A stretch of 64,000 nt of DNA from Eledone cirrhosa (taxonomy: Eukaryota): NCBI GenBank assembly GCA_964016885.1, contig OZ024748.1, positions 7,316,001 to 7,380,000 on the forward strand. The letters run 5' to 3'. Below the pieces are notes generated by a model. That model saw only the letters and a program-made list of their open reading frames with translations. It did no database searches and had not been told where the DNA came from. Positions 2,150 to 58,028 of the stretch are shown here, piece after piece. Each line of letters opens with the position of its first letter. The stretch's first letter is position 1. Both the position numbers and the translations under genes were made by a program.

Positions 2150-2198
2150 CACGTCGAAACGGCTTGAGCTCTGCCGTCGGGGCCATACTTTCTCCTAT
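2150..2198 (+). mobile_element. Short repeat family B fragment (3' half of a hammerhead-like motif, Penelope-end-like)
   Basis: GAAA-CGGC-ttgagctct-GCCG-TC at 2156-2178. Homologous to 10256-10341, 53657-53810 and 57834-58028. Confidence 0.6.
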
Positions 2199-4004
2199 AT
2201 ATATATATTTATATGTATATATATATATATATATATATATAATATATATATATAATATATATATATAATATATATATATAATATATATATATAATATATA
2301 TATATAATATATATATATAATATATAATATATATATTTTATATATAATATATAATAAACATATATAATATATATACATATATATAATATATATATACATA
2401 TATGAGTGTGTTTGTGTATGAATATATATATATATATATATATATATATATTTACATATATTTATTTACATATATATATACATATAATTATATTTATTTA
2501 TATATATATATATATATATACATATATATATTTATACACACACACACACACACACATATATATATATATACACACACACACAAGTATAAATAAATATACA
2601 TAACAACATCATATAAATAATATCTTATATTAATATGTATATTATAATTTACATACGTGCTGGATATAAACAGACCCGCGAAAACTTAGGAATTGAAAAA
2701 AATAGGTAATCTTGAATATAGACGATAGTTTATAGTTGTATAAATAGGGGATATCAGCTGTGTGATATCTGACAGTAGAATGATAGTAAATTAGCCAGTG
2801 GTTTGTGATAGCTGTATGTTATTATCACAGTGGTTGTGTCGTTGATTACAGCCTCTGTGATTTAGCTGCAAGAATTACACGTGTACATTTGACGTTTATT
2901 TTCATTATTCGGTTGAACGTTTAATATAAACATACACTTGCATGAATATACGACCAGATTTTTACCACTTACACATATACAACTCACATAATATGTGTGT
3001 ATATATATGTATATATATATATATATATATATATATATATATATATATATATGTGTTTGTGTTTGTGTTTGTGTGTGTGTTTATATATATACATACATAT
3101 ATTCATATATATACAGACATAATAAATATATCCATATATATACATATATTCAAATATTCATATATATATATATATATATATATATATATATACATACACA
3201 TGTATACATACAAATATTCATCTATCTCTCTCTCTATATATATACATACACATATATATATACATACACATATATATATACATATATATACATACACACA
3301 CATATATATATACATACACATATATATATACATATATATACATACACATATATACATACACATTCATATATACATATTCATATATATATATATATTTATA
3401 TATATATTTATATTCATATATATTCATATTCATATATATATATATATTTATATTCATATATATTTATATTCATATATATATATATATTTATATTCATATA
3501 TATTTATATTCATATATATATATATATATATATATATATATTCATATATATATATATATTCATATTCATTTATATTCATATATATATATATAAATATATA
3601 TATATACATACATATATATTTATATATATATATATATTCATATATATATACATACATATACACATAAATTTATATATATATTCATATATATACATAGATA
3701 TACGCATATATTTATATATTCCTATTGCCGTGAATGTCAAGAAAATACCCATAATTAACTCCTGTTTTATAATTAATCAAGTAAATATATTCATCAGTTA
3801 ATATTTTAAACCGAACAATGAAATATTTCTCTCGCTAATAACATCGACTGCCATCCTTAGTTACTTCTAACTATTCTATTGCATTAATGTTGAAGTAAAA
3901 TTTTAGATTTGTGATACAACGACCGTCTAATGTTCATTGAAATAAACCTGCATATATTGCTGGGTGTTCGTGTATGTTCATAAATAATATTTATATGTAT
4001 ATGT

Positions 4005-4135
4005 TACGTCCCTTTAAGATCTGAGTTCAAATCCCACCGAGGTTGACTTTGCCTTTCATCCTTACGGGTTCGATAAAATAAAGTACCAGTAATGAACTGG
4101 GTATTTGCTGGCCTTGTGCCTAAAGTAGAAACAAA
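4005..4135 (+). mobile_element. tRNA-derived SINE with Meta-like central domain, 5'-truncated
   Basis: B-box gagttcaaatcc, then gaggttgactttgcctttcatccttacgggttcgataaaataaagtaccag and tail gctggccttgtgcctaaagtagaaacaa. At least 10 related copies in the window. Confidence 0.85.
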
Positions 4136-4753
4136 TATTTATATATATATGTGTGTGTGCGTATGCATGTATGTATGATTTATATTTATGAATATATATA
4201 TATATATATATATATATATATATATATATATATATGTGTGTGTGTGTGTGTGTGTGTGTCTGTGTGTATGTGTGTGTGTGTTATAAATAAATAAAAATTA
4301 TCGCTCTAAAATAGAGGGTCTTTGCATAATTACAAACGAATCAAATATTATAAATATTTAAAAAATTCACATTACATTTAAGTATATATATATATATATA
4401 TATATATATATATATAAACACACAAACTTACATATATGTATATAAGGAAATATATATGTGTGTGTGTGTGTGTGTGTGTGTGTGTGTGTGTGTGTGTGTG
4501 TGTGTGTGTGTGTGTGTGTGTGTGTGTGTGTGTGTGTGTGTGTGTGTGTGTGTGTGTGTTTGTGTGTGTTTGTCTGTATGCCTATGAATGTATGCATATG
4601 CCGACATACATCCTAACATAAAATTAATATTTTACACACATACATAAAAATATTATAGAAATTTATAGCCAAAGTCTGATTAATTACAGTTCTAACATTG
4701 ACTTAAATAAAACACTGTTATATTGAAAATATAATATAAGTGTGCTGTGAATA

Positions 4754-55669: not shown

Positions 55670-56585
55670 GGAAGTGACCATAAGAAATTGTAGAAATAGT
55701 CTGCTTTTGGTTAAACGTATGCATACATTATATATATATATATATATATATATATATATATATATATATATATATATATATATATATATATACTTGTGTA
55801 TAATGGTAGCTATGGTGCTTCCATAGGCGGTATGCCAAAATTAGCACTCAATATTCATACAGAGCAGAGTGTGGATAGTATAAAAAAACGAAAAATCAGT
55901 GATGCATCTGGACTCAGTTTATTGCGTGGTACAATTGTTTCGCCGGCAGGTAGCTCGAGACATGATCACTGTATGGATCTGGCTGATTCTACGGCTGCAG
56001 GTTCCTTCGGACACGGGCAGTGCGTACGGAGCAAATTTTCTCAATTGTAACACGCAAAAAACTGAGTCCAGATGCATCACTGATTTTTCGTTTTTTTTAT
56101 ACTATATATCTATATATATATATATTATATAATGTATATATATATATATATATATATATATATATATATATATATATATATATAGAGAGAGAGAGAGAGA
56201 GAGAGAGAGAGAGAGAGAGAGAGATATATAAATATGTATATATATATGTATATATATATGATGATGATAATTATGGAAGTAACCATAAGAAATTGTAGAA
56301 ATAGTCTGCTTTTGGTTAAACGTATGCATACATTATATATATATATATATATATATATATATATATATATATATATATATATATATATGTATATATATAT
56401 ATATATATTATATAATGTATATATATATAATATATATATAATATATATATATATAATATATATATATATAATATATATATATATGTATATATACATGTAT
56501 ATATATGATGATGATGATTATGGAAGTAACCATAAGAAATTGTAAAAATATTCTGCTCTTTGTTAAACGTATGCATACATTATAT
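55670..56585. repeat. Three dispersed-tandem copies of a ~62-bp core
   Basis: ggaagt(g/a)accataagaaattgtagaaatagtctgcttttggttaaacgtatgcatacatta at ~55670, ~56275 and ~56522 (third copy diverged). Confidence 0.88.
55875..56105. mobile_element. ~230-bp element bounded by ~63-bp inverted repeats
   Basis: atagtataaaaaaacgaaaaatcagtgatgcatctggactcagtttattgcgtggtacaattg versus caattgtaacacgcaaaaactgagtccagatgcatcactgatttttcgttttttttatactat. Confidence 0.8.
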
Positions 56586-57833
56586 ATATATATATATATA
56601 TTTATACATATATATATATATATATATATATATATATGGTATATATATATATATGGTATATATATATATATATATATATATATATATATATATATATATA
56701 TATATATATATATATATATATATATATATATATGTGTGTGTGTGTGTGTGTGTGTGTGTGTATATATATATATATGATGATGATGATGATGGCTGCAATT
56801 CGATTTCGAGTAAAGCCATCGATTGCTATTAAACATGAGCATCACAGGCGTGGCTTTTTAGACCTGCTAGGGACTTGCTTATGGCCAGCCAGCAATACCA
56901 TGCATTGCCAAAAATGTCACATATCTCTGAACAGTGAATATATTTGCCCCAAAAGAAGAACGGGTCTACATCATTGCAAATGAAGTTGCGGGTTTTATAT
57001 CTAAGTGACCTTCTCATAGAGAGATGTCTTTATGAAACCCAGGAGTCTCTCGCACCACAAAATATGTGTGTGTGTGTGTGTGTGTGTGTGTGTGTATTTA
57101 ACGATGAAAATGAGAGAAAAATCCGAGATAGGTAGTTAATTAGTTCAGCACCCCATCCCCCAACATATCAAATTTAGCTTGACGCAAGTAATTGGAATTG
57201 AGAAGTCATACAGGTATTAAATTCAAAAATTCTAACCATCATAAAATTAAAAAGGCCAGCTGAGGGCACAAATGAATTGCTACGGCCGTCGCTGGTACCC
57301 TCCCCATACATACACACACACATTGCAGGATGCCCCCTTTGCCCCATTAAATCCAACCCTACCAAGACCACCATCACCACAAAACTATAAACAATCCCAA
57401 AATACATGAAATGATAATAAAATATGAAAGATTTTCAAAGTTAACCATATTTATTACTTAGTTTTACTGTCGTATTAATTAATATGTTAAGTCATTAATT
57501 AGTTAAGACATGTCTTGACTTGTATCATAAATATATGGAAGATATGTTATGATGTCAAAGGGAATAAAGAAAATAGGGAGATAGATACACAGAAGCGTCT
57601 AGAATGTCGTCTGCTTATCAAAGGATCAAATTGTGTCCGCTGGATTTGATGAAAGGAAAACTCCACCATGGTCGTCTGCAAAGGTAGTTTAGTTAATCAT
57701 GATGTGATAGTATGAAAGAACTCTACGTTACGCAACTCATCCATCGTTGATGTTGATGTTGTCGCCAGGATCTTACGTTACCAGGCCATTGAAATATATA
57801 TATATATATATATATAATATATATATATATATA

Positions 57834-58028
57834 TGACGAAGGATGTGTGGTAAGGGATCAGATGGACCATAACGCACCAGAGTACTCAATACTTAGGGTA
57901 GTAGAGTGGGTAATAGGAAAATGTTTCACCCCGACGGCAGAGCTCAAGCCATTTCGACGACTATTGCTGGACTCCAGAAATAGCCGTCGGAACGACTTGA
58001 GCTCTACCGTGGGGGTGAAACAATTTCG
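57834..58028 (-). mobile_element. Longest family B element, with inverted 5' duplication
   Basis: 57918-57971 is mirrored by 57973-58027 around ctgga-c-tccag. Minus strand gtc-GAAA-tggc-ttgagctct-gccg-TC-gggg..taagtattgagtactctggtgcgttatggtccatctg. Lies between (TA)n tracts. Confidence 0.78.

What the first reader, a model, noticed from the sequence alone, without database searches (positions are those of the whole stretch)
2150..58028. A shared architecture: several unrelated short families are fold-backs that break at or inside a hammerhead-like motif
Seen: families A (28982, 53276), B (10256, 53657, 57834), C (39758), the 48726 fold-back and the 55875 element all consist of an element end plus an inverted partial copy, flanked by (TA)n. 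Each carries [G]AAA-short or palindromic stem-NUH, often with AATAAA downstream, and the inversion junction lies within about 50 nt of that motif. Known: Penelope-like elements often leave an inverted partial copy of their terminal repeat. Inference: ribozyme structure or cleavage may fix where reverse transcription switches strand, so most palindromes here may come from one mechanism.
Basis: partly seen in the sequence, partly recalled or inferred. Interest (0 to 1): 0.72.

Follow-up and report, generated by a model that had tools for sequence, protein, structure and literature searches.

The report
Penelope retrotransposon stubs in TA repeats
The short mirror-image repeats are cut-down tail ends of a known kind of jumping gene (Penelope-like retrotransposons) that lands in TA repeats, and their turning point likely marks where the element's RNA begins, not where its ribozyme cuts.

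Summary
The fold-backs are real. Families A, B, the 48726 element and the 55875 element are each a palindrome plus a one-sided 65-105-nt tail, inserted in (TA)n. Each has hundreds to thousands of copies in this 3.0-Gb animal genome. Raw reads from other individuals cover the family A palindrome centre.

Family B is the 3' end of a ~2.7-kb element. Its ORF has a reverse transcriptase followed by a GIY-YIG endonuclease with the CxCX5C linker of Hydra-clade Penelope-like elements. The tails of A, B, 48726 and 55875 share one motif, so the "unrelated" families are relatives.

Published work already explains the mirror images. PLE protein nicks and extends both DNA strands, starts copying at two internal RNA sites (the tail lies between them), and does not need hammerhead cleavage.

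The ribozyme idea is not supported:
- Only one full minimal hammerhead exists in the window (53842-53869), in a family without fold-backs.
- B lacks CUGANGA.
- Junctions cluster about 40-50 nt 5' of the would-be cut site, and almost never at it.
- In two families the hot spot lies 30-31 nt downstream of a TATA-like box, so it likely marks a transcription start.

Earlier follow-ups of this scan reached the PLE-stub reading on other DNA of the same genome.

The parts
2153..2196 (+). Family B piece: sense copy only, from GTCGAAAC to the internal 3' end (..TTCTCCT). (TA)n follows directly. No tail and no inverted arm.
   Evidence: compared with the B copies
10257..10340 (+). Family B stub: a 40-nt inverted arm joined directly to the last 44 nt of the tail. 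This is a third junction position within family B.
   Evidence: (matches to B-type copies in L077 and L087)
28982..29264 (+). Family A, subfamily A2: inverted arm, then 22 nt of sense arm, then a 66-nt interruption, then the full sense arm with a CTGATGA..GAAAC..GTA hammerhead-like core, then the tail.
   Evidence: L242 is this place
39758..39861 (+). Family C: a fixed 104-nt unit in (TA)n with only a 12-nt inverted repeat (ATTGTTATACTT / AAGTATAACAAT). Its link to PLEs is not shown.
   Evidence: 24 of 24 loci have the same structure at 97-100% identity
48629..48730 (-). One-sided tail of the 48726 family.
48731..48981 (-). Palindrome of the 48726 family. The right arm carries a 38-nt deletion relative to other copies. 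The spacer at the centre differs between copies.
53275..53345 (+). Family A1: inverted arm, beginning with a T-run of variable length.
53346..53415 (+). Family A1: sense arm, read as CTTC-CTGAAGA-T-TTC-ATCT-GAA-T-GAAA-CAG-TACTAGTC-CTG-TA|GAAG. It is hammerhead-like, with U.U where G10.1-C11.1 should be. The would-be cut lies after 53388.
   Evidence: Rfam finds nothing; thermodynamic folding gives no support
53416..53481 (+). Family A1: one-sided tail holding the shared stem TACTC..GAGTA. It ends CCTAC[G/A] before (TA)n.
   Evidence: read depth of the tail core is about 5 times that of the arms
53658..53806 (+). Family B stub B1: a 26-nt inverted arm, a sense copy starting at CTGTCGAAAC, and the tail.
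53807..53961 (+). Family D: a 5'-truncated copy of a separate retroposon family. It holds the only descriptor-valid minimal hammerhead in the window (core 53842-53869, helix I 53838-53873).
55790..55874 (-). One-sided tail of the 55875 family. It holds the stem CACTC..GAGTG.
55875..56105 (-). 55875 family: a long arm (~174 nt) and a short inverted arm (~58 nt), joined at a palindromic CAATTG.
57835..58029 (-). Family B stub B2: inverted arm, sense arm and 88-nt tail. The centre reads CTGGAGTCCAG.
   Evidence: L091 is this place

Best explanation
These fold-backs are truncated 3'-end copies ('stubs') of Hydra-type Penelope-like retrotransposons and non-coding relatives, inserted in (TA)n. Their two arms were likely made when both nicked DNA strands primed reverse transcription of the same RNA, and the turning point likely marks the RNA's 5' end at a predicted promoter start just upstream of the hammerhead-like motif, not a ribozyme cut.

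Shown here:
- the anatomy (palindrome plus one-sided tail in (TA)n);
- the high copy numbers;
- the link of family B to an RT/GIY-YIG ORF;
- that both arms of one insertion carry the same lineage variants;
- that junctions cluster at family-specific hot spots 5' of the motif.

Taken from print (PMC11167929, for a vertebrate PLE): both-strand nicking and extension, two internal RT start sites that bracket the tail, and a dispensable hammerhead.

Inferred:
- that this applies to these Hydra-type elements;
- that the hot spot is a transcription start;
- that stubs arise when RT starts at initiation sites lying only 60-150 nt downstream of that start and runs off the RNA end.
For: PLE membership of B:
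- The 251 nt upstream of a long B copy is itself a repeat with at least 2656 candidates, variable 5' starts and two alternative 3' ends.
- Longer copies carry an RT part (FDIVSYY.., YRDDGL) and then an endonuclease part with CNCPDRSTC, VIY..YIG, CNLC and CKH.
- 868 relatives of about 550 aa were found, the named ones from a sea urchin and a coral.
- The profile of 18 relatives matches a PLE ORF piece whose endonuclease passes Pfam's GIY-YIG cut-off: hhalign probability 93.6%, E 2.2e-7, 247 columns.
- Full-length copies start at one fixed 5' end right after a TA-type microsatellite in 18 of 18 loci with the anchor. That gives a unit of about 2.7 kb.

One template per insertion:
- In B (29 copies, 1252 sites), 39 deviations from the majority are shared by both arms, 95 are one-sided and 0 are discordant. 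About 2 shared deviations are expected by chance.
- Arm-to-arm identity is 93.2%, against 86.9% between copies.
- In A1 there are 3 shared, 4 one-sided and 1 discordant over 1770 sites.

Hot spots:
- In B, 27 of 35 sense 5' ends lie at -45..-64 from the tail start, 11 of them at -59. Of 29 inverted-arm inner ends, 21 lie at -53..-60.
- In A1 the centre is the same in 30 of 30 loci. It is perfect in 13, altered only in the tail-less half in 15, and altered in the other half in 2.
- In A2 (tail-only sample of 30), 9 are long copies. About 17 of the other 21 have their sense 5' end within about 8 nt of the 5' edge of CTGATGA.

Promoter geometry:
- A2 long copies have CCAAT at -84 and TATAAAT starting at -30 from the A of CCAGATTC. 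That A also fits an initiator and is the first base of helix I.
- In B, TATTTAT starts at -31 from the A at -59 (TTAGTCC).
- The box is present in 12 of 12 A2 matches and 13 of 17 B matches. A random position has such a box in about 5% of cases in each sequence.

Shared tail motif: [T/C]ACTC..GAGT[A/G] occurs in A, B, 48726 and 55875, with T-A exchanged for C-G.

Reads.
Against: - No RNA data: no RNA run was listed, so no transcript 5' end has been seen.
- The TATA/initiator reading is post hoc and rests on two families. Two long copies of the 55875 family show CCAAT but no TATA box.
- For B, the full-length element's own 5' end lies 2.6 kb upstream of the hot spot, and none of the 18 full-length copies examined is preceded by a partial tandem copy. 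The role of a promoter near the 3' end is therefore assumed from what is written about other PLEs.
- Copies are not independent samples. The A1 centre variants may be inherited, so the 15-to-2 asymmetry is not a clean test.
- Pfam itself does not recognise the B ORF. Only 1 of 18 relatives touches RVT_1 and 1 of 18 touches GIY-YIG, both below the cut-off.
- The fold comparison could not be run.
- No autonomous partner was found for A, C, D, 48726 or 55875.
- Both-strand priming is shown in print only for a Poseidon-type element of a lizard.
Confidence: 0.55

Rival explanations
1. The hammerhead-like fold, perhaps held by the element's protein, acts as a roadblock or template-switch point. Reverse transcriptase would copy through it and then turn round at its 5' edge.
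For: - A-type junctions sit at the 5' edge of helix I and the CTGATGA box in several subfamilies.
- In B the hot spot lies in the loop of a stem CGGCTATTT / AAATAGCCG.
- Some junctions use palindromic microhomology inside the motif: CAATTG in the window's 55875 copy, AATT in L102 and the helix III hairpin in L104.
- PMC11167929 reports that the ribozyme needs the protein to cleave, so the protein probably binds nearby.
Against: - B has no CUGANGA box yet keeps a sharp hot spot.
- D has an intact minimal hammerhead, but its 5' ends are spread over at least 186-522 nt and no inverted arm lies beside the copies shown.
- Nine A2 copies and thousands of B copies read straight through the hot spot, so it is not an absolute block.
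- Zero-spacer perfect palindromes fit run-off at a template end better than a stall inside a template.
- Folding energies of the motifs are unremarkable, z -0.55 to -1.0.
Confidence: 0.2
2. The stubs are themselves the replicating units (SINE- or retrozyme-like non-autonomous elements). Identical junctions would then be inherited rather than made anew at each insertion.
For: - A1: 40 of 40 scored hits are full length at 98-100% identity, and 30 of 30 loci share one junction.
- C: 24 of 24 loci are the same.
Against: - Variants shared by both arms are far in excess of chance and none is discordant in B. Plain inheritance of a two-armed unit predicts one-sided shared variants instead.
- Junction details differ between B, A2, 48726 and 55875 copies.
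- Inference only: an RNA with a 65-bp perfect hairpin next to the RT start would be a poor template.
- These units are not in tandem in the window.
Confidence: 0.15
3. They are DNA-transposon MITEs that target TA (Tc1/mariner type) or fold-back artefacts of assembly.
For: They have inverted repeats, lie in TA-rich targets and are small.
Against: - One-sided tails of 65-105 nt make the ends unlike each other.
- The 5' truncation is variable while the 3' ends are fixed.
- B is continuous with an RT/endonuclease ORF.
- Raw reads of other individuals and contigs of another organism label cover the A1 centre.
- Copies lie on many chromosomes.
Confidence: 0.03

Closest known systems
Hydra-clade Penelope-like elements (Craig et al. 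2021, PMC8557442; section 11 and passages read)
   Same: - Short element (about 2.7 kb here) with a single ORF: RT followed by a C-terminal GIY-YIG endonuclease.
- CxCX5C linker, with CxxC and CxH near the endonuclease end.
- Insertion into (TA)n.
- 5' truncation, an inverted 5'-truncated copy at the 5' side, and a one-sided tail.
- Relatives in aquatic invertebrates.
   Different: - The paper says canonical hammerheads were readily detected in Hydra elements. The B family's 3' region has only GAAA-stem-GUC and no CUGANGA.
- The tails are 65-105 nt, against the 30-40 bp described.
- No partial tandem (pLTR) was seen before the 18 full-length copies examined.
- Clade placement rests on motifs, not on a tree.
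Poseidon-type PLE of the green anole, in vitro TPRT (Frangieh et al. 2024, PMC11167929; main text read)
   Same: - There are two alternative 3' ends with the tail between them, which fits two internal RT start sites.
- A stem-loop sits at the start of the tail. The published element starts in an AC-rich stem-loop.
- Mirror-image copies fit nicking and extension of both strands.
- The hammerhead cut site is not used as an end.
   Different: - Different clade and host.
- Nothing was tested biochemically here.
- The stem-loop here is [T/C]ACTC..GAGT[A/G], not the published one.
- Stubs are far more common than long copies in these samples.
Minimal type I hammerheads of metazoan PLEs (Cervera and de la Pena 2014, PMC4209133; passages read)
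   Same: Family D has CUGAUGA, one extra nucleotide before G10.1, G10.1-C11.1, GAAA, a palindromic ACGU without helix III, a UH site and a 4-bp helix I. A-type arms have the core boxes in the right order, with helices I (5-6 bp) and III (4 bp).
   Different: - A-type has U.U at 10.1-11.1 and only 3 further pairs in helix II.
- B, 48726, 55875 and C have half a core or a mutated one.
- No Rfam hammerhead model matches (the whole window at gathering scores; 53260-53970 at E up to 10).
- No cleavage data exist.
Twin priming of human L1 (recalled, not read here)
   Same: Two cDNAs primed from the two strands of one target, joined head to head to give an inverted 5' part.
   Different: L1 inversions are occasional and their junctions are scattered. 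Here mirror images are the rule and have hot spots, and the enzyme class is different.

Membership tests
Penelope-like elements, endonuclease-bearing (Hydra clade) | Single ORF with a reverse transcriptase followed by a C-terminal GIY-YIG endonuclease | tested here: met
   - RT part and then endonuclease part lie on one strand of L142, in two frames, so that copy is frameshifted.
- Intact relatives of about 550-570 aa carry both parts.
- hhalign to a PLE ORF piece with a Pfam-valid GIY-YIG: probability 93.6%, E 2.2e-7.
- Pfam alone misses it.
Penelope-like elements, endonuclease-bearing (Hydra clade) | Linker with CxCX5C instead of CX2-5CxxC, with CxxC and CxH near the endonuclease end | tested here: met
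   CNCPDRSTC in P0002; CNCRDKGAC and CNCRNKNNC in relatives; CNLC and CKH/CRH further on. The criterion is taken from PMC8557442, section 11.
Penelope-like elements, endonuclease-bearing (Hydra clade) | Absence of the internal CCHH motif; DKT and RWK motifs in the RT | not tested
   No alignment against reference PLE clades and no tree were made. The supplements of PMC8557442 were not opened.
Penelope-like elements, endonuclease-bearing (Hydra clade) | Insertion into (TA)n; 5' truncation; adjacent inverted 5'-truncated copy; one-sided tail | tested here: met
Penelope-like elements, endonuclease-bearing (Hydra clade) | Pseudo-LTRs from partial tandem copies | tested here: inconclusive
   18 of 18 full-length B copies abut a microsatellite directly, with no upstream partial copy. 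One A2 locus (L257) shows a direct partial tandem.
Hammerhead ribozyme (type I, PLE minimal form) | CUGANGA, helix II closed by G10.1-C11.1, GAAA, short or palindromic helix III, UH, helix I | tested here: met
   Met for family D only: 1 site in 64 kb (53842-53869), against a mean of 0.05 in 100 shuffles with a maximum of 2.
Hammerhead ribozyme (type I, PLE minimal form) | The same core in the fold-back families A, B, C, 48726 and 55875 | tested here: not met
   - A: the boxes are present, but 10.1-11.1 is U.U.
- B: no CUGANGA.
- 48726: CUGAUCA and no helix II.
- 55875 and C: only GAAA-stem-UH.
- No Rfam hammerhead match.
Hammerhead ribozyme (type I, PLE minimal form) | Self-cleavage | not testable with these tools
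   Needs in vitro transcription and cleavage assays, as monomer and dimer, with and without the element's protein.
Metazoan non-LTR retrozymes | Tandem arrays of hammerhead-bearing units that give circular RNAs | tested here: not met
   Tandem Repeats Finder lists no array at any of these elements. Copies are single units in (TA)n. Circular RNA was not testable.
TA-targeting MITEs (Tc1/mariner type) | Terminal inverted repeats at both extreme ends, with a TA duplication | tested here: not met
   One end is the tail, which has no inverted partner.

The most novel reading that the evidence does not exclude
The centre of each palindrome is a fossil of a transcription start. A TATA/initiator promoter sits about 60-150 nt upstream of the element's two reverse-transcription start sites. 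Most insertions would then be run-off cDNAs of the first 60-150 nt of the transcript, made on both nicked strands and joined head to head. If so, promoter starts of Penelope-like elements can be read from genome sequence alone. It would also explain why stubs outnumber full copies and fill (TA)n tracts. The small stem [T/C]ACTC..GAGT[A/G] at the start of the tail would be the Hydra-clade counterpart of the published RT start hairpin.
Probability: 0.4. Interest if true: 0.55.

Novelty: new member of a known kind. Interest (0 to 1): 0.35.

Why it matters
It turns a puzzling set of "unrelated palindromes" into ordinary footprints of one known retrotransposon class, so annotators need not treat them as new elements or as assembly errors.

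It also gives a concrete, testable reading of the hot spots: an RNA 5' end, not a ribozyme cut. Genomic copies here agree with the one biochemical study of a PLE, which found that hammerhead cleavage is not part of making an insertion. That leaves the ribozyme's role open.

If the promoter reading holds, such stubs are a cheap way to map PLE promoters and RT start signals across invertebrate genomes.

Tried and rejected
- Rfam: gathering thresholds gave 0 hits in the window. In the permissive whole-window scan, the 150 rows shown are all low-complexity miRNA look-alikes and 643 lower-scoring rows were not shown. The stretch 53260-53970 at E up to 10 gave no hammerhead. Rfam also misses the D minimal hammerhead, so its silence says little.
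- The 30 best GIY-YIG loci of the genome have no minimal hammerhead and no clear tie to the window families. The matches found were neighbouring insertions.
- Pfam on the B ORF parts found nothing. A PDB sequence search with the profile found nothing relevant.
- A structure was predicted (mean pLDDT 70.2), but fold search answered 'machine busy' four times. No fold comparison was made.
- 'Tail = first bases of the next tandem unit' is rejected: the tail and the full-length 5' end are no more alike than shuffles (score 14 against 13.6 +/- 2.0, with 471 of 1000 shuffles reaching it).
- RNA: no RNA holder was listed.
- Second read lay on the 48726 copy: raw reads do not bridge this copy's own centre (depth 3 or less at 48870-48879). 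No verdict, because centre spacers differ between copies and the runs are reduced-representation libraries.
- Thermodynamic folding of the A1, A2, B and D motif regions gave z -0.55 to -1.0. The hammerhead fold is not the predicted optimum.
- The search of earlier findings by sequence for A and B returned nothing useful.
- Partner of D: one copy (L036) has a LINE-like RT ORF about 270 nt upstream of the shared part, but continuity was not shown.
- Complex prediction, the search of protein representatives, the protein atlas and the annotated collections were not used.

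
Full report
**What is there.** The window lies in a 3.0-Gb animal genome that is very rich in (TA)n.

Three corrections matter:
They span 48629-48981 and 55790-56105.
- The "long form" of B at 53657 is two elements. B1 covers 53658-53806, and a separate family D covers 53807-53961.
- C has only a 12-nt inverted repeat.

All families are abundant. Candidate counts, which are lower bounds, are: A1 1579, A2 tail 606, B tail 815, 48726 element 2309, 55875 element 1972, C 400 and D 1720.

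**Not an artefact.** A1 occurs on many contigs at 98-100% identity. All 40 scored hits are full length, and 30 of 30 loci have (TA)n on both sides.

Raw reads from two other individuals cover the A1 centre at a depth of about 30, against about 130 in the arms. The perfect-palindrome variant is seen in three runs, including contigs filed under another organism label. No listed contig reaches 31 letters on both sides of the centre, so bridging rests on depth and on that insertion call. A second lay on the 48726 copy gave no verdict.

**Common anatomy.** A, B, 48726 and 55875 share one design. Two arms are copies of the same element end, facing each other. Both arms stop at one "internal" 3' end, and one of them carries an extra tail:
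- A: 65 nt.
- B: 88 nt.
- 55875 family: about 85 nt.
- 48726 family: about 105 nt.

In the 55875 family the tail sits on the short arm in 13 of 22 copies, on the long arm in 8, and is absent in 1. In B, 24 of 29 inverted arms end within 6 nt of the internal end. Copies that stop at the internal end without a tail also exist, for example window 2153-2196 and L136.

**Link to Penelope-like elements.** A B copy without an inverted arm (L094) extends upstream into sequence that is itself repeated at least 2656 times. That repeat has variable 5' starts and two alternative 3' ends.

- Longer copies carry an RT part and then an endonuclease part with a CxCX5C linker, VIY..YIG, CxxC and CxH. PMC8557442 (section 11 read) gives these as marks of the Hydra clade, which is also the clade that inserts into (TA)n.
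- Pfam does not see the domains.
- The ORF has 868 relatives of about 550 aa.
- The profile of those relatives matches a PLE ORF piece of this genome whose endonuclease passes Pfam's cut-off: hhalign probability 93.6%, E 2.2e-7.
- Full-length copies start at one fixed 5' end directly after a microsatellite in 18 of 18 loci with the anchor, out of 20 loci fetched. The unit is therefore about 2.7 kb.

For A, 48726 and 55875 I found no ORF. Their tails share the motif ACTCT..TAT[TC]GAGT[AG]C with B, and the tail core is about five times deeper in reads than the A arms. The families are therefore related. C and D remain unplaced.

**Arms come from one template.** B copies differ strongly from one another in a stretch just before the internal end, yet each copy's two arms agree.

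- In B, over 29 copies and 1252 sites, 39 deviations from the majority are shared by both arms, 95 are one-sided and none is discordant. About 2 shared deviations are expected if the arms were independent.
- Arm-to-arm identity is 93.2%, against 86.9% between copies.
- A1 shows the same pattern on a smaller scale: 3 shared, 4 one-sided, 1 discordant.

The palindrome is thus made at insertion, not evolved by compensatory change.

**Where the turn lies.**
- In B, sampled by tail only, 27 of 35 sense 5' ends fall between -45 and -64 from the tail start, 11 of them at -59. Of 29 inverted-arm inner ends, 21 fall at -53..-60. The remaining sense ends are scattered: one is a long copy, and one row is an artefact of a deleted copy.
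- In A1 the centre is constant. It is perfect in 13 of 30 loci, altered only in the tail-less half in 15, and altered in the other half in 2. These variants may be inherited, so this is not a clean test.
- In A2, sampled by tail only, the 30 loci divide into 9 long copies, 13 palindromic stubs, 2 complex cases and 6 sense-only pieces. About 17 of the 21 non-long copies have their sense 5' end within about 8 nt of the 5' edge of CTGATGA.
- The 48726 and 55875 families also show preferred ends, with variable fillers. Those samples were chosen with the whole element as query, which biases them.

**The ribozyme question.** I used the criteria of PMC4209133 (passages read). A strict descriptor finds one minimal hammerhead in 64 kb, in family D, against a mean of 0.05 in shuffles. 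D copies have variable 5' ends, and no inverted arm lies beside the copies shown.

- A-type arms carry the core boxes in order, with helices I and III, and the helix II loop varies over an invariant stem. But 10.1-11.1 is U.U.
- B has no CUGANGA, 48726 has CUGAUCA without helix II, and 55875 and C have only half a core.
- No Rfam hammerhead model matches, and folding energies are unremarkable.
- The would-be cut site is a 5' end in 1 of 35 B copies and in none of the 21 non-long A2 copies.
- Hot spots lie about 41 nt (B) and about 43 nt (A1) upstream of the would-be cut site.

PMC11167929 (main text read) reports for a vertebrate PLE that hammerhead mutants insert normally and that no RNA-seq reads end at the cut site.

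**Mechanism proposed.** The same paper shows that the PLE protein nicks and extends both DNA strands, that RT starts at two adjacent internal sites in a stem-loop, and that the tail is the stretch between them. This accounts for the mirror images, the two 3' ends and the one-sided tail seen here.

For the hot spot I propose the RNA's 5' end:
- A2 long copies have CCAAT at -84 and TATAAAT starting at -30 from the A of CCAGATTC. That A also fits an initiator and is the first base of helix I.
- B has TATTTAT starting at -31 from the A at -59.
- The boxes are kept in 12 of 12 and 13 of 17 matches. A random position has one in about 5% of cases.

Two cDNAs running off one short RNA and joined end to end would give the zero-spacer palindromes, with small changes at the centre. 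This reading is post hoc, rests on two families, lacks RNA data and is not matched by a TATA box in the 55875 family. I give it about 0.4.

**Verdict.** The PLE link and the "one mechanism" claim are right but already in print. The causal role of the ribozyme is not supported. Earlier follow-ups of this scan reached the PLE-stub reading on other windows of the same genome.

Noticed in passing
window 19750-25352 (-): A non-LTR retrotransposon. The 1195-aa frame has an AP-type endonuclease, RVT_1 and zf-RVT domains. An upstream 715-aa frame has no Pfam match. This GC-rich island (50-57% GC) is unrelated to the fold-backs.
   Followed up: partly
window 29065-29130 and 29390-29447: The 66 nt that interrupt the A2 hairpin repeat a stretch lying about 130 nt downstream of the element (..GTATATATTCAGATGATGTACT[A/G]CGATATTTAA). 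The order of events behind this is unclear.
   Followed up: no
L142 (minus strand), about +90 from the full-length 5' end, and the B hot spot: The 10-mer TTTAGTCCAG occurs both near the 5' end of the full-length B element and exactly at the 3' hot spot (-62..-53). It may be chance or a short terminal direct repeat.
   Followed up: no
window 53430-53453: The tail core (GTATTGAGTACCTTACTTACTG) has about five times the raw-read depth of the A arms. More families than those in this window must carry it.
   Followed up: partly
window 6285-6412: Another near-perfect hairpin of about 128 nt around a (TA)n centre. It scored against several miRNA precursor models, below their thresholds.
   Followed up: no
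window 8627-9059: A tandem array of a 46-nt unit, 9.4 copies, 89% matches.
   Followed up: no
window 10341-16427 and 37483-40966: Microsatellite-like arrays of 6 kb and 3.5 kb, (TA)n with interspersed CA. B3 and C sit at their edges.
   Followed up: no
L087 about 2080-2160: A different, hammerhead-less PLE type. Its 3' end is followed by (CA)n(TA)n and then by its own inverted copy, so mirror-image insertion also occurs with a microsatellite between the arms.
   Followed up: no
L257 (A2 locus): A direct partial tandem: a copy ending at the internal 3' end is followed at once by a second sense copy with a tail. This is the only pseudo-LTR-like arrangement seen in the samples.
   Followed up: no
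L036, about 780-1550 nt upstream of the D 3' end: A LINE-like RT frame (..LFADDAAV..) lies about 270 nt upstream of the part of D that is shared with another long copy. Whether D is the 3' end of that LINE or merely next to it is open.
   Followed up: partly
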